From the NCBI GenBank assembly GCA_964549315.1, contig CAZJUY010000006.1, positions 45,639-109,638 of the forward strand: a stretch of 64,000 bases of DNA, written 5' to 3'. Each line of letters starts with the position of its first letter. Position 1 is the first letter of the stretch. Below, piece after piece: positions 3,893 to 50,608 of the stretch. This DNA is from an uncultured Chitinophaga sp. GTDB taxonomy: Bacteria > Bacteroidota > Bacteroidia > 2-12-FULL-35-15. The translations under genes and the position numbers were made by a program. The notes under the pieces are model-generated. The model made no database searches and had not been told where the DNA came from. It saw only the letters and a list, made by a program, of their open reading frames with translations.

Positions 3893-3911
3893 AATTTAAT
3901 TAGTATAAAGT

Positions 3912-3944
3912 AAAACGCCTCAGAATTTCTGAGGCGTTTTTTGC
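3912..3944. terminator. Rho-independent bidirectional terminator between convergent genes
   Basis: Perfect dyad 'aaaacgcctcagaa / ttctgaggcgtttt' followed by a T-run (ttttttgc). It lies between the stop at 3892 (+) and the stop at 3964 (-). Confidence 0.8.
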
Positions 3945-3963
3945 TTTTAATGATAGTGTTTTA

Positions 3964-5922
3964 TCACTTCTGCTGTTCAGCAAAAGTAGAAATAGCAATA
4001 ATCTGGATTTTTCGTTCTAGAGCAGCCGCAGGGCTGTAAACAGAGTTTTTAGTGTCGTAATAATCATCACTCACATTTGGTCTTGCTTTTAATTCTCCTA
4101 TTTCTTCTTCAAAAAAAGTAATACTTCCTTCTGCCGTATTTGAGTTGTTTACATATTTTACCAATATGCCATTTTCATATTCCATAAAATAATTTTTTAA
4201 GCTCGAAATTCTTCGTTTAGCTAAATTCACATTGTAATCGGTAGAAGCAAGTGGGCTACAATAGCCTTTCATGGTAATAGTTACTTTTTCATTGTTTTTT
4301 AAAACTTTTACAAGCAGTTGAGCAAAACGTTCAAGGTCTTGCATTCCTGCATCCACACTATCATCAAACAATGCATCAATATCATTTATGGCGCGCTCAT
4401 AATCTTTTTCTTTTGCGCCTTTACTATATTCTTTTTTATACTGCTCACGCATCACCGAATAATCTTCGTATGTTTTTTTGTAATTCTTTTTGGTGCTTGT
4501 TGCTAAAGTTTTTTTATCAGGCTCATCATTATGGAAATAAAGCGTAAGCGGAACCAACACTTTCATTTGTGTTATAAATATTTGTGTGCTATCCACTTTT
4601 TTTGGTGTTTCTTCAATCTTCGGAATTTTAAACATATAAATATCATTACAGCAAGATTCTTTTTCTTCGAAATAAGAACCCAAACGATTAGATGAAATAA
4701 ATGCTTGTGTTTTTTTTGAGTTGATGCTAAAATAAATATCGTTGTAATTGCTGTTTATGGGTAGTCCTAAATTTTTGGGGTCTTCAAACGTGCTTTCTTT
4801 GTAAGCACTTTTAAAAATATCAAAACCACCTAATCCTTTATGCCATGTACTGCTAAAAAATAATTCGTTACAAGGTGTACAATAAAAAGGGGTTATTTCA
4901 TCTTCAATAGAATTTACTTTTTTTCCCGCATTAACAGGCTTTCCATAACTGCCATCTTTATTAATTTTACTATACCAAATATCCATTTGTCCTTCTCCTC
5001 CTGGTCGGTTCGAAGAGAAAAATAAAACTTCATCATCACCCAAAAAACCTGTTGCGGGTTGTGTATTGGTATACCCTTTTGCATTTATATCATCTGGTAA
5101 TTTTTTAAGCGTTAGCCAATGTCCGTCTTTGTATTCGGACGAATAAATTTCACAATTAAACTCCTGCGCATTTTTTTGTTGGCATCGGCTGATATATACT
5201 TTTGTATAATCACTGTTAAAAGCAGTGTTGGCAGTATGAATACCTTGTTGGTTAAAAAGTGTATCCAACTCTTTTGATTTTTGCCATTTAATTGAATCCT
5301 GAATGGAAGTATATATTTTGTTATAATTAACATTGTTTTTTTTATCTCTGTCTTTTGCATCACGTAAGGAAGAGAAGTAGAGTAGGCTATCCACCTGCAT
5401 GGGCGCATATTCCGAAACTTTACTATTTACTGTGCTATCTAAATGAATAACGGTGATTGATTTGTCGGGAGTACTTGTTAATATTTGCGCTAAATCACAA
5501 GCAGCTACTTCTTGCAATGCTTTTTTTACAAAATAACTGTCTTTCTTTTTTTTGTTTTTCTTTGCGTACTTATCAAACATTTTTTTTGCATCCTTGTACT
5601 TGCCTTTGTTTTTTTTGATTGATGCTAACCAAAACACACATTCAGGATACAACTTTCCGCTTGGGTCTTTTTTATAAACTTTGCTATACCAATGGTCGGC
5701 AATGTCAAAATCGTAATTTAATCTGCTTGCATCAGCATATTTGTATTGCAATGTAACATCCGATGAATCCTGTAAAATAGCTTGGTTATAATAGATAGAT
5801 GCGCTAAAAAAATTGTTTTCAGCAAAGGCTTTATCTCCGTCTTCAATCAGCTGTTTATACTTCTGAGCTTTTGAAAACAAACTAGTAAGGAGGAATAAAA
5901 AGAAAATTGTTTTTCTCAACAT
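3964..5922 (-). CDS. OmpA-family envelope protein with an N-terminal TPR-like region and TolB-like (PD40/WD40-like) beta-propeller repeats
   Basis: Signal peptide MLRKTIFFLFLLTSLFSKAQ. PD40-like motifs 'LLYFSSLRD', 'VLFFSSNRPGGEGQMDIWYS', 'ELFFSSTWHKGLGGFDIFKS'. C-terminal OmpA-like peptidoglycan-binding motif 'MKGYCSPLASTDYNVNLAKRRISSLKNYF'. Confidence 0.75.
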   Translation of the reverse strand: MLRKTIFFLFLLTSLFSKAQKYKQLIEDGDKAFAENNFFSASIYYNQAILQDSSDVTLQYKYADASRLNYDFDIADHWYSKVYKKDPSGKLYPECVFWLASIKKNKGKYKDAKKMFDKYAKKNKKKKDSYFVKKALQEVAACDLAQILTSTPDKSITVIHLDSTVNSKVSEYAPMQVDSLLYFSSLRDAKDRDKKNNVNYNKIYTSIQDSIKWQKSKELDTLFNQQGIHTANTAFNSDYTKVYISRCQQKNAQEFNCEIYSSEYKDGHWLTLKKLPDDINAKGYTNTQPATGFLGDDEVLFFSSNRPGGEGQMDIWYSKINKDGSYGKPVNAGKKVNSIEDEITPFYCTPCNELFFSSTWHKGLGGFDIFKSAYKESTFEDPKNLGLPINSNYNDIYFSINSKKTQAFISSNRLGSYFEEKESCCNDIYMFKIPKIEETPKKVDSTQIFITQMKVLVPLTLYFHNDEPDKKTLATSTKKNYKKTYEDYSVMREQYKKEYSKGAKEKDYERAINDIDALFDDSVDAGMQDLERFAQLLVKVLKNNEKVTITMKGYCSPLASTDYNVNLAKRRISSLKNYFMEYENGILVKYVNNSNTAEGSITFFEEEIGELKARPNVSDDYYDTKNSVYSPAAALERKIQIIAISTFAEQQK

Positions 5923-5959: not shown

Positions 5960-7504
5960 TTATTTTTTAAGACGATTGATTGTTTTTGATATGTATATTT
6001 CTGTTGGCATTAATGAATGCTGAATACGTTTTGCATATTTAATACTATCAATAATTTCTCTCTGTTTTTCTTCTATTATTTCTTTTTGAAGAGTTATTTC
6101 AAGATTTGCTTTTTTCTTTTCTCTAAATCTTTTGTAGGATAAAAATGCTAAGCCTATAAGCAATAGTATTCCTCCAATCATTGCATATGTAATTATGTTT
6201 TGGCGAGCAATACGTTCGTTTTTTACTTCTTGGTCTTTTGTCAATAATTCTATTTCTTTTTGTTTTTTCTCACTTTCGTATTGTGTTTCAAGTTCATTCA
6301 ATTGTTTTGAATTTGTTTCATTTAACAACGAGTCTTTAGTTGCCATATATTCATTCACATATTCATAAGCTTTTTCAAAATTTTTCATTTTAGCATAGGT
6401 TTGCGAAAGAGCCAAATAAGAATTTTTTAATTCCTCTTTTATATCTAACTCTTTTGATAGTTTTAATGAGTTCAATTGATATTCAAGTGCTTTTTTGTAA
6501 TCTCCTTTTTCTGAATAAGCAGAACCTACACTATAATCAATATTTGCAATTGTCTGTTTGTTGCCAATTTCTTCGGCAATTTTTCTTGATTTTAAATAAT
6601 ACTCAATTGATAAATCAAATTGTTTGTATTCGTAAAATATATTTGCCAATATAGAATAAGAGTACTGCAAGCCACCAACATCTCCAATTTCATTTTGAAT
6701 GGCAATAGCTTTATTCACAGCTTCTGAAGCTTCGGTGTGTTTTTTTAGTTGGTTCAATGCACTTGATTCTAAAATATAAGTGGTAGCAACACCACTTTTG
6801 TCATTTAGTTCTGTACGAATGGTTCTGCATTTTTTAGCATATTCTATGGCTTGTAAATGTTTTCCTTGCATATAAAAAGCTCTACCAATATTATAGTATG
6901 CCATGTTGATCCCATAATTGTCTTTTGCTTTTTCAAATACTTTCAAAGATTTAAATAAATACTCTGAAGACAATTTGTAATCCCCTTTCATATTGTAGGT
7001 ATTTCCCAAATTTTGATAAGAGGTTGCAATACTTTTTTCATTGTTTAATTTTTTGCTATACTCTAAACTCATTTCTTGATAATAAATAGCCGAATCAAAC
7101 ATTGCTAGTCCATTAAAAGCACTACCAATATTTCCCGAAGAACTAGCCATTCCTTTTAAGAAGTTTACTTCGGTATAGCCACTAAGAGTTTTCATAAAAT
7201 ATTGCCGAGCATTAGCAAAATCTTGTTTTAAATAGTAATAAACCCCAATAACATTATTTGCTGCAGCTTCAGTTGTTTTGTAATTTGATTTGATGGAGAG
7301 AGCTAAAGCTTCTTCTGCTAGTTTTTTTGATTTTTCTGGGTCAGAAAATTTTATTTCAAACCCAATTTGTGCCAATAAGCTTGCTCGGGTTGTGTCATGT
7401 TTTGCTTTTGGAAGAAGCGCTTCCAAACTATCTACTTTTGAAGTTTGAGAAAATAGTGATTGAATTATTATGCAAAAAAATAATGTGGTTGCCTTAAATT
7501 TCAT
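5960..7504 (-). CDS. TPR-repeat membrane protein. It is the short paralog of the TPR-PP2C sensors: TPR array, then coiled coil/TM, then the juxtamembrane 'YAKRIQ.SL.P' motif, with no phosphatase domain.
   Basis: Signal/TM at the N-terminus, then ~9 TPR-like repeats (NxGxxY patterns). There is a coiled-coil 'LNELETQYESEKKQKEIELLTKDQE' and a TM 'IITYAMIGGILLLIGLAFLSY'. The protein ends 'IIDSIKYAKRIQHSLMPTEIYISKTINRLKK*', 37 bp from the next gene. Confidence 0.75.
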   Translation of the reverse strand: MKFKATTLFFCIIIQSLFSQTSKVDSLEALLPKAKHDTTRASLLAQIGFEIKFSDPEKSKKLAEEALALSIKSNYKTTEAAANNVIGVYYYLKQDFANARQYFMKTLSGYTEVNFLKGMASSSGNIGSAFNGLAMFDSAIYYQEMSLEYSKKLNNEKSIATSYQNLGNTYNMKGDYKLSSEYLFKSLKVFEKAKDNYGINMAYYNIGRAFYMQGKHLQAIEYAKKCRTIRTELNDKSGVATTYILESSALNQLKKHTEASEAVNKAIAIQNEIGDVGGLQYSYSILANIFYEYKQFDLSIEYYLKSRKIAEEIGNKQTIANIDYSVGSAYSEKGDYKKALEYQLNSLKLSKELDIKEELKNSYLALSQTYAKMKNFEKAYEYVNEYMATKDSLLNETNSKQLNELETQYESEKKQKEIELLTKDQEVKNERIARQNIITYAMIGGILLLIGLAFLSYKRFREKKKANLEITLQKEIIEEKQREIIDSIKYAKRIQHSLMPTEIYISKTINRLKK

Positions 7505-7582
7505 AATAGTAGTATTGGTATATCAAAAATAGAAAATCTCAACGAATATTCGTTGAGATTTTCACACTTGGTTCTTACTTAT

Positions 7583-10500
7583 TTATTCACCTTTTAATAA
7601 TGTTACATGTCCTGTGTAATCATGATTTCTGTTTCTGAAATCTTTTACGTTAATTTTATAAACGTAAACTCCTGTTTGTGAGATTTCACTTCCACCATTT
7701 GCTGTTCCATTCCAACCTTGGTAGATATTATCCGTTTCAAAAATTAATTCTCCCCAACGGTTAAATATCATCATTTTAAATTCGTTTATTTCGGCACCTT
7801 TTGCAGTAAAATAATCATTGTGTCCATTTCCATCAGGTGTAAATGCATTAGGGATATAAAGTGTAAATTCTGGTTTTATCTCTACTGGAATAGCAATTGA
7901 GTCTCTACATCCATCAGGACTTATTGTAATTAGAGTTACTAGGTACTCGCCTTTATCAGCATAAGTGTGCTGCGGATTTATTTGAGTAGATGTTCCTCCA
8001 TCACCAAAACTCCAAGTATGTGATGCATAATTGATAGAGTTATTTACAAATTTGTAAATCGGACTTATAGTAGTTCCATCCATCGCTTCGGCAGTAAACA
8101 ATGCTTTTGAAGGAGTGTAAACTACTACAGTTGCTGTTGTGTTTGCAGTATTCACACATCCAAATGGGGAAGTTACAGCTACAGTAATATTGTAAATCCC
8201 ACTTTGTCCGTAGGTATGTTGCGGACTCGTTTGATAAGAAGTTGTACCATCACCAAAATTCCAATTGTATTGAGCTCCATTATTAGTTGTAGAATTATCT
8301 ACAAAGGTTAAATTCACTTCACCACAATCAACTGCTGAAGCAGGTGTCAAACTTATAACTGGCAATGGATTTACTATCACTGGAACTGTTCCAGTAATTG
8401 AATTATTACATGCATCTGTTACCGTTACAATGTAGTTTGTTGTATTTGTAGGAGATACTGTAAATGGTCCATTTCCTGAACCTAATCCATTACTCCAAAC
8501 TACTGTTACGGGGCCAGTATTTCCTGAAACAGTTGAAGAAATAATCGCACTATTTCCTACACAAATTGATGATGAAGGAGAAATCGTTAAATTGGCTGCA
8601 GTTAAAGATGTAACGTTTATAGAAACACTTGCCATATTACCTGTACATCCGTTCGCATCGGTTACACTTACATTATAAACGGTTGGTGATGTAGGAGACA
8701 CATTTTGTGATGCTCCTATCATTGAGCCATTCCAGATGTAAATGTATCCACCATTACCACCAGTTGCATTTGCATTTATAGTTGTTGATTGCCCAGAACA
8801 AATAGTGGTTGTTCCTGCGGCAATTAAACTAATAGGTGCTGGTTGTGTAACACTCACACTTGATGTTGCAGTACATCCATTATTATCTGTTACTGTAATA
8901 TTATATGTTCCAGAACATAATCCGTTTGCACTAGCACTTGTTCCACCAGTTGGTAACCATTGATAAGAATATGTTGGTGAACCGCCACTTGGGATTACCA
9001 CTGCCTGTCCATTACAAGCGCCATTGCATGTTGCTGGGAAGCCTGCTGTTGCCAATGTAATAGGTGTAGGTTGTGTAATATTAATATTTGAAGTAGAAAC
9101 ACAACCATTTGCATCTGTTACAGTTGCAATATAATTTCCAACAGATAATCCATTTATTGTTTGCGTGTTTTGTATTGGTGATGTGTTCCATGAATAAGTA
9201 TAAGGGCCAACTCCTCCAGATGCACCCACTGTTGCTTGTCCATTATTTAAACCATTGCAAGTAATATTATTTACCACCATGGCATTACTTATAAGGGCAG
9301 TAGGTTCTGTGATAATAAAACTTTGAGTGATTGAACATCCATTGTTATCAGTTACTATAACAGATATACTTCCTGCATACAAGTTTGTTGCAGTTGATGT
9401 AGTTTGTGTAGGGGTTGAATTCCAAACATAAGAATAGGGCGCTGTTCCTCCTGAAGGTAAAATTGTTGCAGATCCATTATTTGATCCATTACAAGTTACA
9501 TTGGTTTGGTTGGATGTATATGCTAATGCAGTTGCAGGTTGTGTAATTGTTACACTTGAACTTGTAACACAACCATTTGCTGTGGTAACAGATACATTAT
9601 ATGTCCCTGCTGCTAAATTATTTATTGTGGCAGTGGTTGCTCCGTTGCTCCATAAGTAGGTATATGGTGGCTGACCACCATTTGCATTTACCGTTGCACT
9701 TCCATTATTCCCTCCATAACAACCTACGTTTGTAGAACTCATGTTCACATTTCCAGGAGCAGCTCCGCTTCCAACGGTAACATTTGCCGTACTTGAACAA
9801 CCTCCTGCACCGGTTACAGTTACTCCATAAGTTCCTGCACTCAATCCATTGTGTGTTGGATTACTTCCTCCAACCGACCATGAATATGTAAAAGGTCCTG
9901 TTCCACTTACAACAGAAACTGTAGCCGTGCCATTTGATGCTCCACAGTTTGCATTTGTAGAGGAAGTGTTTAATACAATTCCAGTAACGCTTATGCAAAA
10001 TGAATAAGATTGTGTTCCATTGTATGGACAGTTGTTATCTTGAACAGTAACAGTAAAACAGTTAGATGCATTTCCAATATTTGCTTGGGTTGGAGTCCAG
10101 CTAAAAGTTCCTGTTGGTCTTGAGCCACCACTTGATGTAAATGTTGCACCACTAATTCCACTGTTCCATGTGATGGTTACGTTTTGTGATGCATCAGCAT
10201 CAAAAGTTGGAATGTTAAAATTAATTGGAACACCTGCACAAGCAGTTAAGGAATAAACTCCTGTGTTATTAATACCATTCACATAAGGGTTGTTGTTTGT
10301 ACAAGTGATTGTACGCAATTGAATGTCTCTCATCACACTGCCAACTAAAACTTCATTACGATATTCTTGTACTAAAATGGTAAATACTGTTACTTGTAAT
10401 GCAGTTGGCGTCATACACATGTCTCCAGTTAAGTTATTAAACGTAACTGCTGGAGATGATAATAATGGTTGTTGTGCTGAGTAAGGTGCGTTATAAGTTA

Positions 10501-11146
10501 CAGTGGTTGTTGGGCTAGTGTTAGGGGTGATTAAAGTATAATATAATGAGTCTCCATCAATATCAGTAGAACCATTATTAAAACAATAAGGTTGACCTAC
10601 ACAAACAAAAGGGATGGGTGGATTCGAAAATGTAGGGGAGCTATTGCAAGGGAAATTAAGATTATCTAAATGCGCCTCGATATAAATATTTTGACTGCCT
10701 GGAGCTTGAATTGTGCCTATTGCAGCATTTCTACAGCATAGGTTAAAACTCATCACCCAGTCGGTACATTGTGCTGGGAATGTTACAATGCCTCTGTATA
10801 TGTATTCCTGAACACCTGGGTATGTTCCTCCCGAACATTGCGTTGTCATTGTAGCGCATATAGGAGTAACTTCTATACCTGTGTTTGCAATACGATTTAA
10901 TGTTACGTTAAAATTTTGGTTGCACGATGCCGATGAAATATTTATTGAGGCTGTGTTTGGTGCTGCTACACCCGCGCAGTCGCGATAAAAGGAAAGTGAA
11001 ATTTGATACTGATTGCCACCTAGGCATTGGTATGTTAAGTCCGCACTTTGTGCATGCGAAGCATAAGCTTCATTTTGTGATTGAATAAATAATATTAAGA
11101 AACTTATTGCAACGAAAACCTGTTTTATAATAGTAGTTGTTTTCAT
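7583..11146 (-). CDS. SprB-repeat cell-surface adhesin with PKD domains and a type-B T9SS C-terminal domain (gliding-motility-associated CTD)
   Basis: Signal peptide [29 protein letters not shown]. There are at least six SprB-type repeats ('[25 protein letters not shown]', '[25 protein letters not shown]', and others). Two PKD-like modules ('[30 protein letters not shown]', '[30 protein letters not shown]'). C-terminus '[18 protein letters not shown]...NRWGELIF...GVYVY' matches the TIGR04131 type-B CTD. Confidence 0.85.
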   Translation of the reverse strand: [1187 protein letters not shown]

Positions 11147-11362: not shown

Positions 11363-13453
11363 TCAAATAATTAATCCTATCACAACCACATCATCCACTT
11401 GTTCTAAGTTTCCTTTCCAATTATCAAATGTGTTTGCAATTATTTCTTTTTGAGTATCTATTGGCTTGTTATAATTTTCGGATAGCAATTTTTTGAGCTG
11501 ATTGTATTTGAATTTTTTCCCTTTGTCGCCACCAAATTGGTCAGCATACCCATCACTAAACAAATAAACAGCATCTCCTTTTTGTAGTTGAATTTTATGG
11601 TTGGTGTAATTATCTACAATACCATCTAAATTTATTCCTATTGGAAATTTATCAGCTTTTATCTCAAATATTTTTTGGTTTCTTACATAATATAAAGAAT
11701 TGAATGCACCAGCATATTGCAATTCATTTGTTTTAGTATTTAAAGTGCACAAAGATAAATCCATTCCATCTTTAACTCCTTTACCATCTTCTGATTGGCG
11801 TAATGTTTTTGTAACACCAGCATCTAAATGTTTTAAAATTTCTGCAGGTTCTGTTAAACCAACTTCATTTACTGCTTGAGTTAATAAGTTAAACCCTACC
11901 ACACTCATTAAGGCACCTGGAACTCCATGGCCAGTACAATCAACTGCTGCGAAACAAACAAATTCATTTTTTTGTTCTATCCAATAAAAATCACCGCTAA
12001 CAATATCTTTTGGTCTGTAAAAAATAAAACTATTGGGTAAAAGCGTTTTCCAGTGTTGATTGGGCGGCAAGATAGACTCCTGAATGCGTTTGGCATAATT
12101 AATACTATCTGTAATTTCTTTTTTTTGCTGAGTTATTTCAATATTTTGATGTTCTAATAATTTGTTTGCTTTTTGTTTTAACTGGAATCTGTTTAGTAAA
12201 AACAACGATAGAGTTACGACTAGCAAAATGGATACTATTAAAATAAACATCCACATTTTGTTTTTGTTCAACTGCAATGACTGAATCTCAGATTCCTTTG
12301 TAATTATTTCTAATTCTTTTTGTCGTTTTTCCGATTCATATTTTGTTTGTAATTCATTTAGTTGTTTAGTATTTTCAGAGTTAAAAATCGAGTCTTTTAT
12401 ATTTATCAACTCTTTTTGGCTTTCAAATGCTTTTTGATAATTTCCCATTTTAGCATATGATTCAGAATAGGTTTCATATCCGTATCTTATTAACTCTTTT
12501 GCATTTAACTCTTTAGCAATAGCCATTGCCCTGTCTAAGTATTGAAAACCTTTTTCGTATTTTGATCGATTACAATAATTGCTACCCATACTAAAAAGTG
12601 TTATTGCTAAGTTGTATTTATCTTTTAGCTTTTCTCTAATTTTTAATGATTGTTCAAAATAGAATAAAGCAACTTCATGTTTCCCTTCATCTTCATACAC
12701 ACTTCCAATATTATTTAATGTAAGAGCTGTCCCCGATTCGTCATTTGCTTCTTTTCTTGCGACTAATGCTTTTCTATTGTATTCTAAACTTTTTGCTGTG
12801 TCTCCTTTGACTTTATAGATTAAGGCAATGTTGTGTAGTGAGTTGCCAATTCCTCTTTTGTTATTTATTTCTGTTTTTATTTTTAATGACTTATGTTGAT
12901 ACTCTAATGCTTCATCATATTTGCCAAGAAATTTATAAATTAAAGCAATGTTGTTATAAGTACTTCCAAGCTGCCATTTACTTCCTCCTACTTCTTCAGA
13001 AATTTTTAATGATTGTAAATAATAATCTAAAGCTTTGTTATAATCCGCTTTGTCGTCATACACTAAACCAATATTGTTTAGGGCAACTGCAATTTTATTT
13101 TTATTATTTAGTTGTTTCGCAATTTTTAATGAACGGTTAAAATATTCTAAAGCTTTTTCATAATTGCTGGAATAATAGGAGATAAGTCCGATGTTATTAT
13201 AAGAATTCATTTTCCCTTCATTAAAATCAATTTTTTCAGATAGGGTCAATGCTTCGTTTGCCAGTTTTAAAGCATCTTCTGTGTTGTCTGCAGAGTATTC
13301 GTAAGCAAGCTCATTTGTTATTTTAATTCGTAATGTATCAACAATATTTTTTTGAAGAATATTTTTTAAACTATCGGCAGTATGGTTGCTTTGAGAAACT
13401 GAAAATTTCGCAAACAGGAATAGCAATAGAAAATATGCAATTTTTTGTTTCAT
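11363..13453 (-). CDS. TPR-repeat membrane sensor fused to a PP2C-type (SpoIIE/RsbU-like) serine phosphatase domain
   Basis: Signal peptide, ~9 TPR repeats, a coiled coil 'LNELQTKYESEKRQKELEII', a TM 'MWMFILIVSILLVVTLSLFLL', then 'SINYAKRIQESILPP...SGDFYW'. PP2C motifs present: 'VDCTGHGVPGALMS', 'DGMDLSLC', 'FSDGYADQFGG' and 'EQVDDVVVIGLII'. Confidence 0.85.
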   Translation of the reverse strand: MKQKIAYFLLLFLFAKFSVSQSNHTADSLKNILQKNIVDTLRIKITNELAYEYSADNTEDALKLANEALTLSEKIDFNEGKMNSYNNIGLISYYSSNYEKALEYFNRSLKIAKQLNNKNKIAVALNNIGLVYDDKADYNKALDYYLQSLKISEEVGGSKWQLGSTYNNIALIYKFLGKYDEALEYQHKSLKIKTEINNKRGIGNSLHNIALIYKVKGDTAKSLEYNRKALVARKEANDESGTALTLNNIGSVYEDEGKHEVALFYFEQSLKIREKLKDKYNLAITLFSMGSNYCNRSKYEKGFQYLDRAMAIAKELNAKELIRYGYETYSESYAKMGNYQKAFESQKELINIKDSIFNSENTKQLNELQTKYESEKRQKELEIITKESEIQSLQLNKNKMWMFILIVSILLVVTLSLFLLNRFQLKQKANKLLEHQNIEITQQKKEITDSINYAKRIQESILPPNQHWKTLLPNSFIFYRPKDIVSGDFYWIEQKNEFVCFAAVDCTGHGVPGALMSVVGFNLLTQAVNEVGLTEPAEILKHLDAGVTKTLRQSEDGKGVKDGMDLSLCTLNTKTNELQYAGAFNSLYYVRNQKIFEIKADKFPIGINLDGIVDNYTNHKIQLQKGDAVYLFSDGYADQFGGDKGKKFKYNQLKKLLSENYNKPIDTQKEIIANTFDNWKGNLEQVDDVVVIGLII

Positions 13454-16400
13454 TATATTTTAATTCCGATTACCAATATATCATCAACTTGTTCTAGGTT
13501 CCCTTGCCATTCAGAAATTGTTTTGTCTAGCAGCACCCCTTGTTCTTCCATTTCGGTGTTTTTTTGTAAAGCTATTAAAGTTTGATGAAATCTTTTCACC
13601 ATATATTTTTTACCTTTTTCTCCGCCAAATTGATCAGCGTATCCATCCGTTGTCATATAAATAACATCTCCTTTTTCTAATTCTAAAGTATGATTTGTAA
13701 ACACACGATCTTCATTCATCTGATCTCCACCGATGGGCTGTTTATCAGCTTTAATTTCTTGCAATTTATTTTCTTTAATAAGTATTAAAGAACGATTTGC
13801 TCCTGCATACTGCAATTGTGTTTTGTTGTTATTAAATACACAAATAGAAATATCCATTCCATCACGAGTTTCGCTTTGTTCTAAATCTTGTTTTAAAGAT
13901 TGCCGAACGCGTTCATGAAGTAAGTTTAAAATTTTGGCTGGTGTAACAATATTTTTTTCTATTACAATTTCATTAAGTAAGGTATTTCCAATCATACTCA
14001 TAAATGCACCAGGAACACCATGTCCTGTGCAATCAACGCATGCAATAATGTATTGATTGTTATGTTTTGTAAACCAGTAAAAATCACCACTTACAATATC
14101 TCTTGGTTTAAATAGTACGAATGATTTTGGGAATGTTTTTTTTATTTCGTCCTTTAATGGAAGTATTGCTTCTTGAATGCGTTTTGCATAATTGATACTT
14201 GATTTTATATCATTGTAAGCAACTTCTATAATTGTATTTTTTTCTATTAGTTCTTCTTTTTGCTTTACAACTTCAGATGTTCTTTCTGATACTATTCGTT
14301 CGAGTTTTATTTTTGCTACTTGTAGTCGTCTAACACTTAATTGAACTATTAGAATAATAATAATGATAAGTCCTAAGAAGTAAAATACATAAGCCCAAAT
14401 TGTTCTATATAAAGGAGGCAGTATGGTAAACTTATAATTAGCTATTGTACTTTCATGCTCATATATATTTTTTGCTTTTACTGAAAAGGTGTATTCGCCT
14501 TCATAGAGATTAGTGTATTGTTTTACTCCTGTTGAAGACCAATCCGACCAAGCAGTATCAAAGCCCGAAAGCTTATAACTGTAAAGTAATTTATCTTCTC
14601 TTTCAAAAAATGCAGCAGCGTAATCAAAGGAAATAGAATTGTAATTATAGTTGATAGTTTGTTCAATATTTTTTTTAGTGCTATCACTTACAATGATATT
14701 AAGCAAGGAGTCTTTTCCGATTGTTACTTTTCTAATAATTGTATTATAATTAGGAGAGTAGTTCTTTTTAATGCCTCCGTCATATCTTACAAGCACATCT
14801 GTTAATCCTATCCACAATATTTTATCACTATTTTGATAAAAAGTGTAGCCTTGATTTTCTAGGAATAATAATGCTTTTTGAGTGATTTTTCCTCCTGCTG
14901 ATTTTTTGTTTAATAAATCTAATTTGTTGCCACTATGATTGTATGTTATATCTAAGCCTTTTGAAATGGCAAAACATTTCTGTTTACCCTTGTCTAAGTT
15001 TGGAAGATATTCGTAGGTGTTTGTTGTAGTGAAAAAAAATAATTTATCATTGTTGTTTACAATATTCGTAGCTTGTTTAGGTGCACCCTGCGTACTATCA
15101 TATTGAGATATTTTATAATTTAATTTCGCATCTAATGTTATTTTTAAGATTCCACTATTTCTTGTTGCTGCCCATAGTTCAGAATTTACATTCTTGTTTA
15201 TTTCTATTAAATGTAAGACATCACTTGTGGGAATTTCAATGTATTTAATGATTTTCCATTCATTGTTTTTATCTTTTTCTAAAATTTTTAACCCGTCTTT
15301 TTCTCCAACATACATTCTATTGCTATTAGTAGTTGAATTACACAGAACAGTTGAATAAGCTTTAGTTAGCCTTTTGCTATTATTCCCAACTATTTCAAAT
15401 ACACCGTCACTAGTTGCTGCAAACAGTTGATTTCCATTTGCATTAAAATTCCAAACTTCAAAATAAGTTCCTCCTATTTGTTCAAATTGTAATGGTTTTG
15501 GCTTTCCGCTAATATTATTATCGTTTAAAATAGCTGAACTCATCCCTGAAGTAGTTCCTAAATAAATTTTATTATTAAAAATAATAATCGACTCAATATT
15601 ACCACTAAACCCTGTTTTATTGCTGTAATAATATAATGGAGAATGAATAGATATTTTACCGATACCATTATTTGTACACACCCACAGTTGATCTTCAGAA
15701 TCAAAAAAAATGTTTGCTATAGATTCATCGTTTAAACCATCTGTTTTGTTGATTCGACTAGTAATTTCTAGATTTTTATTTAGAAAAAACAATCCAGAAC
15801 GTGTATTTAAAATAATAGAGGAATCATTAAACCACCTTATTCCCAGAGGGCCTGCATCTAGTATTTCTTTTTGTGAAACAGGGTTTATTTTTTTTGTTTC
15901 ATTTGTTGCAAGATTCATTATAAAGAAACCTTGATCAACAGATAATGCAATGATTTGGTTTGTGTTTTCTTTTGGGTAATTTACCATTCCAACGATAGGC
16001 TCGTTGGCAAACAACTCTCCTCCAGAAATTAATGTTGTTTTTTTTCCATCAAATTGTAGCATGCCAATTTTGCGTTCTCGAAAATAAATTTTGTCCCCTA
16101 TTTTGAATGAGATAGATGCAAAAGAATTTGATGAAGGTGGAATTGTTTTTACAATCCCATTCTCATATACAAATAAGTTTTCACTGGACTGAAATATAAC
16201 TGCATCATTAAGTTCATGAATTTCCCATATATCTGCAAATTTTTTTGCTTCTTGATTTAAGTTTTTTGAGATCGATTGATAGGTCATTTCACCTTTTTCA
16301 TTTGGTTTTAAGTACCCAAATTCTCCAACTGCCCCAACGTAAATAGTTCCTTTTTTATCTTTTATCAAAGAGCGAATAGCAACACCGCTTGTAATAAATA

Positions 16401-16617
16401 TCTTTCGCCAAGATTTCCCGTCATACTCAAGTATATTAGTACTGTTGCCAAAATAAAGAACGCCTCTCTCATCTTGCACACAATTCCAAACTTGCATAAA
16501 ACCATTGTACTCTTTTGGTGAATAGTTGCGTATTGGATAGCCATTGTACTGAGCAAACAGTTTTATGCTATAGCAAAGAATTAATAAGGTGAAAAATATT
16601 TTTTTAAGGTAATACAC
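13453..16617 (-). CDS. Periplasmic beta-propeller (two-component-regulator propeller repeats) plus Y_Y_Y sensor, then a TM helix, fused to a cytoplasmic PP2C/SpoIIE phosphatase
   Basis: Signal peptide. Repeated Reg_prop-like blades ('VWNCVQDERGVLYFGNSTNILEYDGKSWRKI' and others). Y_Y_Y-like segment 'YSYKLSGFDTAWSDWSSTGVKQYTNLYEGEYTFSVKAKN'. TM 'IWAYVFYFLGLIIIIILIV'. Then 'SINYAKRIQEAILP...SGDFYWF', 'VDCTGHGVPGAFMS', 'DGMDISICV', 'TTDGYADQFGG' and 'EQVDDILVIGIKI'. The stop overlaps the start of the downstream paralog (ATGA at 13453). Confidence 0.85.
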   Translation of the reverse strand: MYYLKKIFFTLLILCYSIKLFAQYNGYPIRNYSPKEYNGFMQVWNCVQDERGVLYFGNSTNILEYDGKSWRKIFITSGVAIRSLIKDKKGTIYVGAVGEFGYLKPNEKGEMTYQSISKNLNQEAKKFADIWEIHELNDAVIFQSSENLFVYENGIVKTIPPSSNSFASISFKIGDKIYFRERKIGMLQFDGKKTTLISGGELFANEPIVGMVNYPKENTNQIIALSVDQGFFIMNLATNETKKINPVSQKEILDAGPLGIRWFNDSSIILNTRSGLFFLNKNLEITSRINKTDGLNDESIANIFFDSEDQLWVCTNNGIGKISIHSPLYYYSNKTGFSGNIESIIIFNNKIYLGTTSGMSSAILNDNNISGKPKPLQFEQIGGTYFEVWNFNANGNQLFAATSDGVFEIVGNNSKRLTKAYSTVLCNSTTNSNRMYVGEKDGLKILEKDKNNEWKIIKYIEIPTSDVLHLIEINKNVNSELWAATRNSGILKITLDAKLNYKISQYDSTQGAPKQATNIVNNNDKLFFFTTTNTYEYLPNLDKGKQKCFAISKGLDITYNHSGNKLDLLNKKSAGGKITQKALLFLENQGYTFYQNSDKILWIGLTDVLVRYDGGIKKNYSPNYNTIIRKVTIGKDSLLNIIVSDSTKKNIEQTINYNYNSISFDYAAAFFEREDKLLYSYKLSGFDTAWSDWSSTGVKQYTNLYEGEYTFSVKAKNIYEHESTIANYKFTILPPLYRTIWAYVFYFLGLIIIIILIVQLSVRRLQVAKIKLERIVSERTSEVVKQKEELIEKNTIIEVAYNDIKSSINYAKRIQEAILPLKDEIKKTFPKSFVLFKPRDIVSGDFYWFTKHNNQYIIACVDCTGHGVPGAFMSMIGNTLLNEIVIEKNIVTPAKILNLLHERVRQSLKQDLEQSETRDGMDISICVFNNNKTQLQYAGANRSLILIKENKLQEIKADKQPIGGDQMNEDRVFTNHTLELEKGDVIYMTTDGYADQFGGEKGKKYMVKRFHQTLIALQKNTEMEEQGVLLDKTISEWQGNLEQVDDILVIGIKI

Positions 16618-16634: not shown

Positions 16635-17909
16635 TTATTTCAAACGATTTAAATTTTTTTCAATGTACTTGTCTTTTGGTAGTAAAGACTGTTGTATTCG
16701 TTTAGCGTAATGAATGCTATCTAAAATTTCTTTTTGTTTACCATCAACAATAGCTTTCTGGAATTCAACTTCTCGTTTTTGTTCTAAAATAAGTTCGTTT
16801 GCTTTTTGTTTGTTCTTATAACCAATAAAAATGGTTGCTATTACAATCAATAATAATGCTGATAGTATATATAGATTTTGTGTTTTAGCAGTTTGTTGTT
16901 CAAGTTTAACCTCTTTTATTTCGTTTTCTTTATTTAGGTTTTCGATTTGCAGTTGTTTTTTTTCATTTTGATATTTAGCTTCCATTTCATTTATAAGCCT
17001 TGCGTTTTCTGTGTTGTAAATTGTGTCTTTTAGGTTTGAGTATTCTGCAAAGTATTCATAAGCTTTTATGTAATTGTTTTGTTTTATATAAATATCAGAA
17101 GCCATTCTGTAGGAGTGTTTCAATAAATCCACATAGTTTATTTCTTTGGAAAGTTCTATGCATTTATTAAAATTCGTAAGGGCATTATCATATTGTTTCA
17201 TTTGTAAATACACTTCGCCAATATTTGTGTAGTTAATTGCAACTGATTTTTTGTCATCTAGCTCTAGTCGCAATTTCAATCCCTTATTTAAATAAGAGAT
17301 GGCCTCATTATACTTGCTTTGTGATGCATAAACTTCTGCTAAATAATTTAAACAGTAAGATTCTCCTAATTTATTATGTGATGATTGGTAAATTTTTAGC
17401 CCTTTCGTAAAACAGTCTATAGCTAAAAATGTATCATTGTTAAGTTGATGAATAAGTCCTATATCGCCCAATGAAGAAGCCATTGCGGAGCTATCATTCA
17501 TTGATTTTGCTAGGTTATATCCGGCAGTAAATTGCTCCAAAGACGCTTTTAAATTATTTTGTTTTTTATAATATGTTCCATAATAGTTATACATGGAAAT
17601 TAAAACATCGTTATATTTTTCTTGCTCAGCTATTTTCACAGCTTTTTGATAATACTCTAATGCTTTTGGGTAATTTCCTTTGTAATAATTCGCAATGCCT
17701 TTGTTTTTATAGCCTTCTGCAAGAGCGTGTTTGTTGTGGTTGGACTCAGCATATTTTATTAATTGTTCAGCAAAATAAATACTGCTATCTAAATTTGTGT
17801 TGGTAGTTCGGTTAAAATTATTTAATAAGACAGATAGTGTATCTGCTTTAGTTTTGTTAGTAAGTATTACTAGGAATATAGTTATATATATTTTAAATAG
17901 TTCTTTCAT
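16635..17909 (-). CDS. TPR-repeat membrane protein, second short paralog ending at the 'YAKRIQ.SL.P...NRLK' motif with no PP2C domain
   Basis: Signal peptide, TPR array, coiled coil 'INEMEAKYQNEKKQLQIENLNKENE' and TM 'LYILSALLLIVIATIFIGY'. The C-terminus 'ILDSIHYAKRIQQSLLPKDKYIEKNLNRLK*' ends 18 bp before the start of the next gene (16617). Confidence 0.75.
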   Translation of the reverse strand: MKELFKIYITIFLVILTNKTKADTLSVLLNNFNRTTNTNLDSSIYFAEQLIKYAESNHNKHALAEGYKNKGIANYYKGNYPKALEYYQKAVKIAEQEKYNDVLISMYNYYGTYYKKQNNLKASLEQFTAGYNLAKSMNDSSAMASSLGDIGLIHQLNNDTFLAIDCFTKGLKIYQSSHNKLGESYCLNYLAEVYASQSKYNEAISYLNKGLKLRLELDDKKSVAINYTNIGEVYLQMKQYDNALTNFNKCIELSKEINYVDLLKHSYRMASDIYIKQNNYIKAYEYFAEYSNLKDTIYNTENARLINEMEAKYQNEKKQLQIENLNKENEIKEVKLEQQTAKTQNLYILSALLLIVIATIFIGYKNKQKANELILEQKREVEFQKAIVDGKQKEILDSIHYAKRIQQSLLPKDKYIEKNLNRLK

Positions 17910-28356: not shown

Positions 28357-29691
28357 CTAAATCAGTCCTCGCGCTTTTAGTTCCAGATATTTATTAATAG
28401 AATTTACAGATAAATTTTGTGGTGGGGTGAGTATGCTTTGTATTCCATATTTTTCTAACTCTTTTGCAATTAACTTTTTTTCAAATGCAAATTTTTCTGC
28501 AATTGCTTTGCTGTAAATTTCTTCTGTAGTTTTTGCTGGTTTGTTTAAAAAATCAGTTAGCTCGGTATTTTCAAAAAATATAACTACTAACAAGTGGTCT
28601 TTTGCTAGACGCAATAAATATTTTAATTGCCGCTTTAAACCCGATAGGCTCTCAAAATTGGTGTAGAGTAATAATAAACTGCGTTGAGAGATTTTTGTTT
28701 TAATGTTTATATACAAGTTTTCATAATCACTTTCTAAATAACCCGTTTTTTGGTTGTATAATAAATGCAATATTTTATTTAGCTGCCCGCTTTTTCTTTC
28801 TGCTGGTAAAACAGATTGAACCTTATTAGAAAACGTTACAATTCCCGCTTTGTCATGTTTTAACATTGCAATATTAGTAATTACCAAACTAGAGTTAATA
28901 GCATAATCCAATAAACTTAATCCATCAAATGGCATACGCATAATTCTACCCATGTCTATTACAGCATATACTTGTTGTGATTTTTCATCTTGATACTGAT
29001 TGGTCATCAATTTGTTTTTTCTTGCAGTAGCTTTCCAATTGATTGTTCTATAATCATCACCAAAAACGTATTCTTTTATCTGATCAAATTCGCTATTGTT
29101 TCCGATTTTTCTGATTTTTTTGATGCCAAAATCTGTAAGCCTATTTGATATAGCTAATAATTCATATTTACGCATTTGCATAAATGATGGAAAAACAGGA
29201 ACCATTATATCCTGTGAAAATTTGAATCTTTTTTGAATGAATCCAATTGGGCTTTTAACAAAAATATTTACAGATCCAAAATGATATTCTCCACGTTTTA
29301 CTGGTCGAACATCATATTCTATTGTTCTGTGTTTTCCTGAACCTATTTTTAGATGAAAAGAATTGTTTCTTAATTGGAATTGAAAAGGTAACTCGTCAAT
29401 AACTTCAATTTTTATAGGGAATAAATAAAAATTTTCAATAAATATTTGTACTGGATTGTCATCTCCGTTTGAAAGCTTGTCGAGTGTATCTCGTCTCGCA
29501 AATACTCCATTTTTATTTGCATATAAAATGATAATATCAACAAGTAGCAAAGCAACGATTAGTATTAATGAATAAATTGCAAAATCTGCTACCTCATTAA
29601 AGAAAAAGCCAAACACCAAAAACACAACTTCCAATGAAATGATGTAATAAATGAGAGTAGAAAAGTATATTGACTTTATAAATGATTTCAT
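28357..29691 (-). CDS. DUF58-family protein (vWA-like), partner of the MoxR ATPase
   Basis: N-terminal TM pair, then 'YVFGDDYRTINWKATARKNKLMTNQYQDEKSQQVYAVIDMGRIM', the conserved DUF58 core. It sits immediately downstream of moxR. Confidence 0.8.
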   Translation of the reverse strand: MKSFIKSIYFSTLIYYIISLEVVFLVFGFFFNEVADFAIYSLILIVALLLVDIIILYANKNGVFARRDTLDKLSNGDDNPVQIFIENFYLFPIKIEVIDELPFQFQLRNNSFHLKIGSGKHRTIEYDVRPVKRGEYHFGSVNIFVKSPIGFIQKRFKFSQDIMVPVFPSFMQMRKYELLAISNRLTDFGIKKIRKIGNNSEFDQIKEYVFGDDYRTINWKATARKNKLMTNQYQDEKSQQVYAVIDMGRIMRMPFDGLSLLDYAINSSLVITNIAMLKHDKAGIVTFSNKVQSVLPAERKSGQLNKILHLLYNQKTGYLESDYENLYINIKTKISQRSLLLLYTNFESLSGLKRQLKYLLRLAKDHLLVVIFFENTELTDFLNKPAKTTEEIYSKAIAEKFAFEKKLIAKELEKYGIQSILTPPQNLSVNSINKYLELKARGLI

Positions 29692-29707
29692 TTTTGTATT
29701 CTATATA

Positions 29708-30685
29708 CTATCTAGGAATTTCTATTTTTTCAATTATTTGTTTAATAATTTCATTCGAAGTAATACCCTCCATTTCTTTTTCTGGAGTGAGTATTACTCT
29801 GTGTTTTAAAACATTCACAGCAACGTATTTAATATCGTCTGGTGTTACAAAATCTCTTCCTTTGATTGCAGCTATTGCTTTTGCGCTTGTAAGCATAGAT
29901 AAAGACGCACGAGGAGAAGCTCCTAAATAAAGCGAAGTGTTATTTCTAGTTTGGTTTACAATTTTAGCGATATATGAAATTAAGTTTTGGTCAATATGAA
30001 CCTGACTGACTTTTTCTCTGTAATTTTTTACATCACTTGCAGTCATAACAGAATTAACAGTATTGATATCAACTGTGTTTTTTCTATCGTGATAATCAGC
30101 AATTATTTTTGTTTCATCTTCTAAAGATGGGTAATCAATATTTATTTTGAATAAAAATCTATCTAATTGTGCTTCAGGTAAACGGTATGTTCCTTCATGT
30201 TCTACAGGGTTTTGTGTTGCCAATACAATAAATGGTGCGGCTAAAGGATAAGTTTTTCCATCCACAGTAATTTGCCTTTCTTCCATTGCCTCAAATAATG
30301 CTGCTTGCGTTTTTGCCGGAGCGCGGTTGATTTCATCGATAAGTACAATGTTCGAAAATAGAGGTCCTGGTTTAAATTCAAATTCACTTGTTTTTAAATT
30401 GAATATACTTGTTCCGATAATATCGGAAGGCATTAAATCGGGCGTAAATTGAATACGGGAAAAATTTACTGACATTGTTCTTGATAGCAATTTTGCAGTA
30501 AGTGTTTTAGCTACTCCAGGCACGCCCTCTATTAATACATGTCCGTCTGCTAATACGGCAGCTATAAGCATTTCAATCATCGTGTCCTGCCCAACAATAA
30601 TTTTATTTATTTCGGACTTAATAGAATTTACAGCTTGTTGTAATCCGCTCAAATCAATTCTGTTTTCAAAGGTTTGGTTTTCCAT
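29708..30685 (-). CDS. MoxR-family AAA+ ATPase
   Basis: 'IIVGQDTMIEMLIAAVLADGHVLIEGVPGVAKTLTAK', 'VLIDEINRAPAKTQAALFEAMEERQITVDGKTY' and 'RFLFKI'. Confidence 0.9.
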   Translation of the reverse strand: MENQTFENRIDLSGLQQAVNSIKSEINKIIVGQDTMIEMLIAAVLADGHVLIEGVPGVAKTLTAKLLSRTMSVNFSRIQFTPDLMPSDIIGTSIFNLKTSEFEFKPGPLFSNIVLIDEINRAPAKTQAALFEAMEERQITVDGKTYPLAAPFIVLATQNPVEHEGTYRLPEAQLDRFLFKINIDYPSLEDETKIIADYHDRKNTVDINTVNSVMTASDVKNYREKVSQVHIDQNLISYIAKIVNQTRNNTSLYLGASPRASLSMLTSAKAIAAIKGRDFVTPDDIKYVAVNVLKHRVILTPEKEMEGITSNEIIKQIIEKIEIPR

Positions 30686-30690
30686 AGTTT

Positions 30691-33575: not shown

Positions 33576-33586
33576 ATTTTTATTTT

Positions 33587-37216: not shown

Positions 37217-37226
37217 TAATTCAGTA

Positions 37227-50440: not shown

Positions 50441-50465
50441 TAAGTAAAAGTAATATTATCTTGTT

Positions 50466-50606: not shown

Positions 50607-50608
50607 TT

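What the first reader, a model, noticed from the sequence alone, without database searches (positions are those of the whole stretch)
13453..16617. Two-component-regulator-type beta-propeller/Y_Y_Y periplasmic sensor wired to a PP2C phosphatase instead of a histidine kinase
The N-terminal ~730 aa have the Reg_prop blade pattern and a Y_Y_Y module. In Bacteroidetes these are best known from hybrid two-component sensors of glycan utilisation loci. Here a single TM is followed by a SpoIIE-type PP2C catalytic domain with all the metal-binding motifs. I see no HisKA/HATPase or receiver domains. This sensor-output combination implies Ser/Thr dephosphorylation signalling from a propeller sensor. The start codon overlaps the stop of the TPR-PP2C paralog (ATGA at 13453), which suggests co-translation in one operon.
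Basis: partly seen in the sequence, partly recalled or inferred. Interest (0 to 1): 0.55.

Follow-up and report, generated by a model that had tools for sequence, protein, structure and literature searches.

The report
Propeller-sensor membrane PP2C phosphatase, common family

Summary
An intact 1054-aa ORF lies at 13453..16617, on the minus strand. It has a signal peptide, a roughly 14-bladed double beta-propeller with a Y_Y_Y domain, one TM helix, a helical linker and a SpoIIE/PP2C domain. The model's best PDB fold matches are the BT4663, BT4673 and BT3049 sensor domains, then SiaA-PP2C (TM 0.93). All SiaA active-site residues are present and invariant in 42 homologues. No HisKA, HATPase or receiver domain was found.

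One detail is inverted. The gene's stop (TAA) overlaps the start of the downstream TPR-PP2C paralogue (TAATG), not the reverse.

The architecture is not rare. More than 150 clusters at 50% identity are full length, and it occurs in at least 43 Bacteroidota species genomes. Sources name it 'SpoIIE family protein phosphatase' or 'RsbU/ligand-binding sensor'. I found no experimental paper on it.

New here: linker lengths between the membrane and PP2C differ by exact multiples of seven residues (41/42 and 59/63 homologues). This supports coiled-coil transmission to a dimeric phosphatase.

No STAS, SiaC or RsbW partner gene lies in the window or is conserved next to homologues, so the substrate is unknown.

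A conserved phosphatase-less TPR paralogue lies upstream. Interest is low to moderate.

The parts
13453..16617 (-). Whole gene: 1054-aa propeller/Y_Y_Y-TM-PP2C sensor phosphatase (GTG start at 16617, TAA stop at 13455-13453)
   Evidence: ORF list and translation. Homologues align from residue 2-10 to 1054, which supports the GTG start.
16552..16617 (-). N-terminal signal peptide or membrane anchor (aa 1-22, MYYLKKIFFTLLILCYSIKLFA|Q)
   Evidence: Hydrophobic segment 4-22 and helix 2-18 in the model. Cleavage was not tested.
14758..16551 (-). Periplasmic double beta-propeller (aa ~23-620, about 14 four-stranded blades; Reg_prop repeats)
   Evidence: Pfam Reg_prop at 28 bits. The AF2 model shows about 56 strands. 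Foldseek matches 4a2l/4a2m, 3ott/3va6 and 3v9f, and phmmer finds stretches matching 4a2l.
14413..14757 (-). Y_Y_Y beta-sandwich domain (aa ~621-735)
   Evidence: Pfam Y_Y_Y at residues 674-732. phmmer aligns residues 656-740 to BT4663 residues 703-788.
14332..14406 (-). Single transmembrane helix (aa ~738-762)
   Evidence: Hydropathy peak of 2.88 over 736-770. Continuous helix 740-775 in the model.
14128..14331 (-). Cytoplasmic signalling helix / coiled-coil linker plus PP2C helices alpha1-alpha2 (aa ~763-830, includes SINYAKRIQEAILP)
   Evidence: The linker length between invariant P735 and Y810 varies only in heptad steps in 41/42 and 59/63 homologues. The region aligns with SiaA residues 389 onward, and SiaA dimerises through alpha1-alpha3.
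13456..14127 (-). SpoIIE/PPM (PP2C) catalytic domain (aa ~831-1054) with D845, D862, G865, D922, D991, G992, D995 and D1045
   Evidence: Pfam SpoIIE at 67 bits. The NCBIfam SiaA C-terminal half scores 212.7 bits. phmmer to 6k4e gives E 9.6e-39 and Foldseek gives TM 0.93. These residues are invariant in 42 homologues.
11363..13453 (-). Downstream paralogue: signal peptide-TPR-TM-PP2C (696 aa). Its ATG overlaps the stop of the propeller gene (TAATG).
   Evidence: Pfam TPR_12 and SpoIIE. The C-terminal modules are 44% identical, with a 14-residue linker gap. The same pair and junction occur in L001 and L002.
16635..17909 (-). Upstream paralogue: signal peptide-TPR-TM plus a 58-aa tail homologous to the phosphatase linker, with no catalytic domain (424 aa). 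It ends 17 nt before the propeller gene.
   Evidence: Pfam finds TPR only. The tail is 51% identical to the TPR-PP2C linker, with a 7-residue gap. It is conserved as a 420-424-aa gene, and the TM plus tail is its best-conserved part.
7583..11146 (-). Next gene downstream: SprB-repeat/PKD/CHU_C T9SS cargo protein (1187 aa), followed by the first minus-strand terminator-like hairpin (7563..7532)
   Evidence: Pfam and the terminator scan. The position is conserved in L001 and L002. It may have its own promoter in the 216-nt gap, so membership of the unit is uncertain.

Best explanation
The gene encodes a single-pass inner-membrane sensor phosphatase of Bacteroidota. Outside the membrane it has a double seven-bladed beta-propeller plus a Y_Y_Y domain, of the kind that binds oligosaccharides in Bacteroides hybrid two-component systems. 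This sensor is joined through one TM helix and a continuous coiled-coil signalling helix to a SiaA/RsbU-like PPM (SpoIIE-family PP2C) domain in the cytoplasm. The protein most likely works as a homodimer (inferred). Ligand binding in the periplasm would change the relative position of the two Y_Y_Y/TM legs, as proposed for BT4663 ('scissor-blade closing'). That movement would travel down the heptad-registered coiled coil to helices alpha1/alpha2 of the PP2C dimer and switch Mn2+/Mg2+-dependent phosphatase activity on or off. The output would be dephosphorylation of a phospho-Ser/Thr on a small STAS- or SiaC-like partner-switch protein encoded elsewhere in the genome. This gene and the adjacent TPR-PP2C paralogue probably converge on the same substrate, as RsbU and RsbP do in Bacillus. 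Shown here: the domain anatomy, the fold, intact catalytic residues, heptad-quantised linkers, the conserved tandem arrangement, and the wide distribution of the family. Inferred: the dimer, the direction of the switch, the ligand and the substrate.
For: Domains are established. The fold is established: BT4663/BT4673/BT3049 sensors at E 1e-32 to 1e-26, and SiaA-PP2C at TM 0.93. The SiaA active-site residues D457, D474, G477, D600, G601 and D653, with D534 and D604 (PMC7647112), map to D845, D862, G865, D991, G992 and D1045, with D922 and D995. All are invariant in 42 homologues at 26-67% identity. The spacing between invariant P735 and Y810 is 75 residues or 75 +/- 7n in 41/42 homologues. In an independent set of 63 genome-encoded homologues, 59 fit the same rule. 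The three paralogues in the window differ by 7 and 14 residues. SiaA-PP2C is a dimer through alpha1-alpha3. Coiled-coil-linker control of PPM dimers, with sensor domains exchangeable among PPM, HK and GGDEF outputs, is an established model (PMC12143880). Scissor-like signalling has been reported for BT4663 (PMC8534201 citing Lowe 2012). The same sensor is found with HK/REC/AraC, LuxR and cyclase outputs. Sensor-PP2C genes occur in tandem in 8 of 47 loci.
Against: No STAS, DUF1987/SiaC or HATPase_c_2 gene was found in the 64-kb window (Pfam scans; phmmer). No partner gene is conserved next to 47 full-length homologues. Only one locus, L019, has an RsbW-type HATPase_c_2 gene, 3 kb away. The substrate class is therefore inferred only from the SpoIIE/SiaA family relationship. 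The linker has pLDDT below 50 for residues 771-794 in the monomer model, and no dimer model could be made. There is no SusC/SusD or other glycan-utilisation context, so the ligand is unknown. No member of this architecture has been studied experimentally in the literature I could search.
Confidence: 0.7

Rival explanations
1. The anatomy is the same, but the phosphatase does not act in a STAS/SiaC partner switch. It would instead reverse phosphorylation by Hanks-type Ser/Thr kinases, or act directly on another target such as a transcription factor, a T9SS or gliding component, or the neighbouring sensors.
For: No partner-switch genes lie in the window or are conserved beside homologues. The gene sits next to a SprB/CHU_C T9SS cargo gene in the window, L001 and L002.
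Against: The catalytic domain belongs to the SpoIIE (PF07228) / SiaA-like branch. The characterised members of that branch act on STAS or SiaC-type proteins (PMC7647112, PMC11418112 abstract). CHU_C neighbours occur in only 8 of 47 loci, which is about what the density of such genes would give by chance.
Confidence: 0.2
2. The three co-oriented sensors work as one heteromeric unit. These are the phosphatase-less TPR-TM protein, the propeller-PP2C and the TPR-PP2C. Their heptad-matched juxtamembrane helices would pair with each other, so the catalytically empty paralogue titrates or tunes the two phosphatases.
For: The 424-aa protein keeps the TM helix and a linker helix 51% identical to that of TPR-PP2C, offset by exactly 7 residues. 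The tail is the best-conserved part of the orthologue at 63% identity. The trio is conserved in order in L001 and L002.
Against: The trio is seen only in close relatives (at least 62% identity). More distant homologues stand alone or have other neighbours. No interaction evidence exists, and multimer modelling was not available.
Confidence: 0.1
3. The PP2C domain is a non-catalytic remnant (pseudo-phosphatase), or the ORF is an assembly or fusion artefact of an HTCS sensor gene and a phosphatase gene.
For: None beyond the unusual appearance of the combination.
Against: All metal-binding residues are invariant. More than 150 clusters at 50% identity align end to end. At least 43 species-level genomes carry the same full-length gene.
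Confidence: 0.02

Closest known systems
SiaA of Pseudomonas aeruginosa (membrane sensor-HAMP-PP2C phosphatase of the SiaABCD pathway; PDB 6k4e)
   Same: It is the closest solved catalytic module: E 9.6e-39 over residues 777-1052, TM 0.93 and 33% identity. All active-site residues are shared. Both have an N-terminal alpha1-alpha3 dimerisation region preceded by a helical linker, and both are membrane-anchored with an extracytoplasmic sensor.
   Different: The sensor is a double propeller plus Y_Y_Y instead of SiaA's periplasmic domain with HAMP. There is no siaB/siaC/siaD-like operon. The NCBIfam SiaA equivalog score is 212.7 against a cut-off of 700, so this protein is not an orthologue.
Bacteroides thetaiotaomicron hybrid two-component systems BT4663, BT4673 and BT3049 (periplasmic domains 4a2l/4a2m, 3ott/3va6, 3v9f)
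   Same: The periplasmic architecture is the same (two beta-propellers plus a Y_Y_Y domain, about 740 aa) and is followed by a single TM helix.
   Different: Sensor identity is only about 15-16%. The cytoplasmic HisKA/HATPase/REC/AraC modules are replaced by a PP2C domain. The gene is not next to a polysaccharide utilisation locus.
RsbU/RsbP of Bacillus subtilis and the transmembrane RsbU of Chlamydia trachomatis (sensor PPM phosphatases of partner-switching systems)
   Same: These are SpoIIE-family PPM domains controlled by an N-terminal sensor through a helical or coiled-coil linker (PMC12143880). Chlamydial RsbU is likewise described as a sensor phosphatase with a periplasmic domain (PMC11619594). 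Several sensor phosphatases may converge on one substrate.
   Different: The sensor domains differ. In those systems the rsbV and rsbW partner genes are known, whereas none was identified here.
Database family 'SpoIIE family protein phosphatase' / 'serine phosphatase RsbU + ligand-binding sensor domain-containing protein' (Reg_prop/Y_Y_Y + SpoIIE) of Bacteroidota
   Same: The architecture and length are identical and identity is 26-93%. This gene is simply a member.
   Different: Nothing structural differs. The exact sequence is not on record and the nearest relative is 93% identical.

Membership tests
Bacteroides-type hybrid two-component system (HTCS) | Periplasmic double beta-propeller (Reg_prop) plus Y_Y_Y sensor followed by a TM helix | tested here: met
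   Pfam and Foldseek matches to BT4663, BT4673 and BT3049 at E 1e-32 to 1e-26
Bacteroides-type hybrid two-component system (HTCS) | Cytoplasmic HisKA + HATPase_c kinase core | tested here: not met
   No such Pfam or NCBIfam hit at E <= 0.01. The cytoplasmic part is fully accounted for by the linker and the PP2C domain.
Bacteroides-type hybrid two-component system (HTCS) | Receiver domain and AraC-type HTH output in the same polypeptide | tested here: not met
   Absent. Both are present in sensor relatives such as P0071, P0073 and P0076.
Bacteroides-type hybrid two-component system (HTCS) | Linkage to a polysaccharide utilisation locus (SusC/SusD pair) | tested here: not met
   No SusC/SusD-type family appeared in the Pfam scans of 44 window ORFs.
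SpoIIE/RsbU-type PPM (PP2C) phosphatase | PPM alpha-beta-beta-alpha fold | tested here: met
   Pfam SpoIIE at 67 bits against a cut-off of 25. TM 0.93 and rmsd 1.9 A to 6k4e.
SpoIIE/RsbU-type PPM (PP2C) phosphatase | Conserved metal-coordinating Asp/Gly residues (SiaA D457, D474, G477, D600, G601, D653) | tested here: met
   D845, D862, G865, D991, G992 and D1045 are present and invariant in 42 homologues.
SpoIIE/RsbU-type PPM (PP2C) phosphatase | Regulatory helical or coiled-coil linker feeding the alpha1/alpha2 switch of a phosphatase dimer | tested here: met
   The heptad-quantised linker length supports a coiled coil. The region is homologous to the SiaA alpha1-alpha3 dimer region. The dimer itself was not modelled, so this part remains inferred.
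SpoIIE/RsbU-type PPM (PP2C) phosphatase | Mn2+/Mg2+-dependent phospho-Ser/Thr phosphatase activity | not testable with these tools
   This needs a biochemical assay.
Partner-switching system (phosphatase + STAS/SiaC phosphoprotein + RsbW/SiaB kinase) | Cognate STAS- or SiaC-type substrate and HATPase_c_2 kinase genes, usually linked | tested here: not met
   None is in the 64-kb window. None is conserved beside 47 homologues. One HATPase_c_2 gene lies near the homologue in L019. Presence elsewhere in the genome could not be tested.
SiaA (NCBIfam NF038263 equivalog) | Full-length score at or above the curated cut-off (700 bits), SiaA-type sensor with HAMP, and a siaBCD operon | tested here: not met
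   The score is 212.7 bits and only the C-terminal half (profile positions 385-656) matches. There are no siaBCD-like neighbours.

The most novel reading that the evidence does not exclude
The conserved trio of phosphatase-less TPR-TM protein, propeller-PP2C and TPR-PP2C would be a heteromeric signal-integration device. Its members would pair through heptad-matched juxtamembrane coiled coils (offsets of exactly 7 and 14 residues). The catalytically empty paralogue would act as a built-in modulator, and the output would be Ser/Thr dephosphorylation of an unlinked, still unidentified Bacteroidota substrate. That output would control the adjacent SprB-type T9SS adhesin or surface behaviour.
Probability: 0.1. 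Interest if true: 0.6.

Novelty: new member of a known kind. Interest (0 to 1): 0.25.

Why it matters
The finding is a clean example of modular rewiring: the glycan-type HTCS sensor of Bacteroidota is coupled to Ser/Thr-phosphatase output instead of His-Asp phosphorelay. That supports the 'exchangeable toolkit' idea for PPM, HK and GGDEF outputs. The family is large and apparently unstudied, and its ligand and substrate are both unknown, so Bacteroidota have a substantial uncharted branch of envelope-to-cytoplasm signalling. The heptad-quantised linker gives a direct, testable handle on the transmission mechanism. As a discovery, however, it is incremental. The architecture is already recognised by routine annotation, and this copy has no unusual feature.

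Tried and rejected
- **Exact look-up of the protein:** it is not on record, so source identification failed. The nearest relative is 93% identical, from a Logan assembly.
- **Literature searches:** three searches for the architecture gave nothing relevant (Y_Y_Y + PP2C + propeller; Reg_prop/SpoIIE/Bacteroidetes; 'two component regulator propeller' + SpoIIE). A search for RsbU or partner-switching in gliding Bacteroidota returned no paper that mentions RsbU.
- **Partner genes:** I ran Pfam on 44 window ORFs. There were no window hits. The apparent RsbV hit in L085 turned out to be a CHU_C/PKD protein.
- **Neighbourhood clustering over 47 full-length loci:** no conserved partner emerged. The most recurrent neighbours were other PP2C sensors and large CHU_C-type proteins.
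- **Link to T9SS/CHU_C cargo:** only 8 of 47 loci have such a neighbour. I rejected this as a general association.
- **Sigma-70 promoter scan:** 69 sites were found against 70.8 expected, so it is uninformative. Bacteroidota also use a different promoter consensus. TAnnTTTG-like motifs seen by eye in the 216-nt gap upstream of the SprB gene leave co-transcription of that gene open.
- **The 424-aa upstream ORF as a recent pseudogene:** rejected, because an orthologue at 63% identity ends at the same position and has a highly conserved tail.
- **Multimer modelling of the dimer or heterodimer:** not possible with the tools.
Full report
**Observation**

The coordinates 13453..16617 delimit one intact ORF of 1054 codons, on the minus strand. 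It starts at GTG 16617 and ends at TAA 13455-13453. No other start codon lies between the upstream in-frame stop and this GTG. Homologues align from residue 2-10 to the last residue, so the start is credible.

The window has 31% G+C. It carries GldH, CHU_C and Por_Secre_tail genes, so it comes from a member of the Bacteroidota. The exact protein is not on record. The nearest relative is 93% identical.

**Domain content**

Pfam finds three families above their gathering cut-offs:
- SpoIIE at residues 854-1053, 67 bits.
- Y_Y_Y at residues 674-732, 39 bits.
- Reg_prop, 28 bits for the whole protein.

Pfam finds no HisKA, HATPase_c or receiver domain. NCBIfam matches only the C-terminal half of SiaA: residues 771-1053 against profile positions 385-656, at 212.7 bits. 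That is far below the equivalog cut-off of 700.

Hydropathy shows a signal-like N-terminus (residues 4-22) and a single TM segment around residues 738-762.

An AlphaFold2 model built on 42 homologues has mean pLDDT 85.7. It shows:
- about 56 beta-strands between residues 29 and 613, which corresponds to about 14 blades;
- a beta-sandwich at residues 625-732;
- a long helix at residues 740-775;
- helices at residues 793-818 and 822-828;
- an alpha/beta phosphatase domain.

Against the PDB, the best Foldseek matches are the periplasmic domains of the B. thetaiotaomicron HTCSs BT4663, BT4673 and BT3049. These score E 2.6e-32 to 2e-26 and align over their whole ~745 residues at 13-16% identity. 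Next comes SiaA-PP2C (6k4e), with TM 0.93, rmsd 1.9 A and 33% identity. Sequence search of the PDB finds the same two.

**Catalytic competence**

The SiaA structure paper (PMC7647112) names D457, D474, G477, D600, G601 and D653 as the conserved active-site residues. It names D534 and D604 as supporting a third metal.

In the gap-checked alignment these residues correspond to D845, D862, G865, D991, G992, D1045, D922 and D995. Every one of them is present. Each is invariant across 42 homologues that are only 26-67% identical to the query, except D922, which is Glu in two of them.

The gene is on the minus strand. 'ATGA at 13453' is the ATG of the downstream TPR-TM-PP2C gene (11363..13453) followed by its next base. 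The real overlap is TAATG: the stop of the propeller gene shares one base with the start of the paralogue. The same junction occurs in a relative at 62% identity. Translational or operonic coupling is therefore supported, but with the gene order reversed.

**How common it is**

The word-indexed search returned more than 60 clusters at 90% identity that carry Reg_prop/Y_Y_Y plus SpoIIE. Sources name them 'SpoIIE family protein phosphatase' or 'serine phosphatase RsbU (regulator of sigma subunit)/ligand-binding sensor domain-containing protein'.

The exhaustive search of 50%-identity representatives listed 150 proteins of about 1000-1350 aa. The 150th still scored 543 bits (E 1e-157), so the family is much larger than the list.

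A scan of species-representative genomes kept at least 43 loci with end-to-end matches. They come from Bacteroidales, Rikenellaceae, Flavobacteriales, Crocinitomicaceae, Cytophagales, Sphingobacteriaceae and other groups.

The same sensor also occurs with HK/REC/AraC, LuxR-HTH, guanylate-cyclase and PAS-containing outputs. The architecture is thus a routine, already annotated product of domain shuffling. I found no paper that studies it.

**Mechanism**

The new piece of evidence obtained here concerns the linker. I counted residues between the invariant Pro at the periplasm/membrane boundary (P735) and the invariant Tyr of the SINYAKRIQ helix (Y810).
- In the 42 aligned homologues, the distance is 75 in 29 of them and 61, 68, 96, 103, 110 or 124 in 12 others. 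All of these are 75 +/- 7n. One sequence has 67.
- In an independent set of 63 genome-encoded full-length homologues, 59 fall on 61, 68, 75, 82, 89, 103 or 131. The exceptions are 66, 91 and two proteins with large insertions.
- Within the window, the propeller-PP2C linker is exactly 14 residues longer than that of the TPR-PP2C paralogue. The linker of the 424-aa upstream protein is exactly 7 residues longer than the TPR-PP2C linker.

Indels restricted to whole heptads are what a continuous, register-sensitive coiled coil predicts. This fits three published findings:
- SiaA-PP2C is a dimer through helices alpha1-alpha3 (PMC7647112).
- There is a general model in which coiled-coil linkers control PPM phosphatase dimers and make sensor domains exchangeable among PPM, HK and GGDEF outputs (PMC12143880).
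- Scissor-like transmembrane signalling has been reported for the BT4663 sensor (Lowe 2012, cited in PMC8534201).

I therefore propose the following sequence. A ligand-induced rearrangement of a periplasmic dimer is transmitted through the TM helix and coiled coil to the alpha1/alpha2 switch of a PP2C dimer. The dimer, the sign of the response and the ligand are all inferred.

**Substrate**

SpoIIE/SiaA-type phosphatases normally act on STAS- or SiaC-type phosphoproteins that are phosphorylated by RsbW/SiaB-type kinases. None of these is encoded in the window, according to Pfam on 44 ORFs and phmmer.

Clustering the neighbours of 47 full-length homologues found no conserved partner. Only L019, a Catalimonadaceae MAG, has a HATPase_c_2 gene, 3 kb away from the phosphatase.

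The partner-switch output is therefore the best guess from family membership, not a demonstrated feature. A different substrate remains a serious rival.

**Context**

In the window and in relatives at 62-93% identity, the gene order on the coding strand is as follows:
1. TPR-TM, 424 aa.
2. Propeller-PP2C.
3. TPR-PP2C.
4. A 216-nt gap.
5. A SprB-repeat/PKD/CHU_C T9SS cargo protein.
6. The first terminator-like hairpin.

The 424-aa protein keeps the TM helix and the first linker helix but lacks the catalytic domain. Its orthologue at 63% identity ends at the same place, and the tail is its best-conserved region. It is therefore a maintained phosphatase-less paralogue.

More distant homologues stand alone or sit beside other sensor-PP2C genes (8 of 47 loci). 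CHU_C neighbours are no more frequent (8 of 47 loci).

**Verdict**

The object is an ordinary member of a large, auto-annotated but experimentally unexplored Bacteroidota family. Two points carry some interest: the heptad-quantised linker and the conserved phosphatase-less paralogue.

Noticed in passing
window 16635..17909 (-): This is a 424-aa protein with a signal peptide, TPR repeats, a TM helix and a 58-aa cytoplasmic tail. The tail is homologous to the juxtamembrane linker (..DSIHYAKRIQQSLLP..) of the two PP2C sensors, but the protein stops before any catalytic domain. An orthologue at 63% identity ends at the same place, and the TM plus tail is its best-conserved part. It may be a phosphatase-less modulator that pairs with the PP2C sensors.
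   Followed up: partly
window aa 735-810 of the gene 13453..16617 (nt ~14188-14415), and homologues in A1 / L007-L085: Across the family, the linker between the membrane and the PP2C domain varies only in steps of seven residues: 61, 68, 75, 82, 89, 96, 103, 110, 124 and 131. This holds in 41/42 and 59/63 sequences. It is a clean signature of a register-sensitive coiled coil.
   Followed up: yes
window 7583..11146 (-), 5960..7504 (-), 3964..5922 (-): Downstream of the sensors lie three genes. The first is a 1187-aa SprB-repeat/PKD/CHU_C (type B T9SS signal) protein. The second is a 514-aa TPR protein. The third is a 652-aa protein with a weak OmpA-like C-terminus (23.7 bits, below the Pfam cut-off of 27.2). 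Strong hairpin terminators follow the first (7563..7532) and the last (3940..3912). In L002 the 514-aa TPR gene is missing between the adhesin and the 651-aa gene.
   Followed up: partly
L085 7062-8849 with flanking genes 236-2887, 2907-4574, 8968-11544: In a Bacteroidetes MAG, a HAMP-PP2C protein (SiaA-like architecture, 596 aa) is flanked by three CHU_C/SprB/PKD T9SS cargo genes. This echoes the window's adjacency of PP2C sensors and a SprB/CHU_C gene, but the association is not general (8 of 47 loci).
   Followed up: partly
L019 8488-9249: This 254-aa protein has an RsbW-type HATPase_c_2 domain (residues 120-242) and an unassigned 120-aa N-terminus. It lies 3 kb downstream of a propeller-PP2C homologue in a Catalimonadaceae MAG. 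It is the only candidate partner-switch kinase seen near any homologue.
   Followed up: no
window 37185..41205 (+), 48545..52504 (-): Four large ORFs (695, 648, 631 and 631 aa) have no Pfam match. They sit among GT2 and PMT_2-like glycosyltransferase genes and include a tandem pair of equal length (631 aa). They are probably uncharacterised membrane proteins involved in glycosylation or the cell envelope.
   Followed up: no
window 28357..34558 (-): This is a co-oriented run of genes: SpoIIM-like, two unassigned ORFs, DUF4350, a MoxR-type AAA_3 ATPase and DUF58. An RDD-family gene lies divergently at 34613..35329.
   Followed up: no
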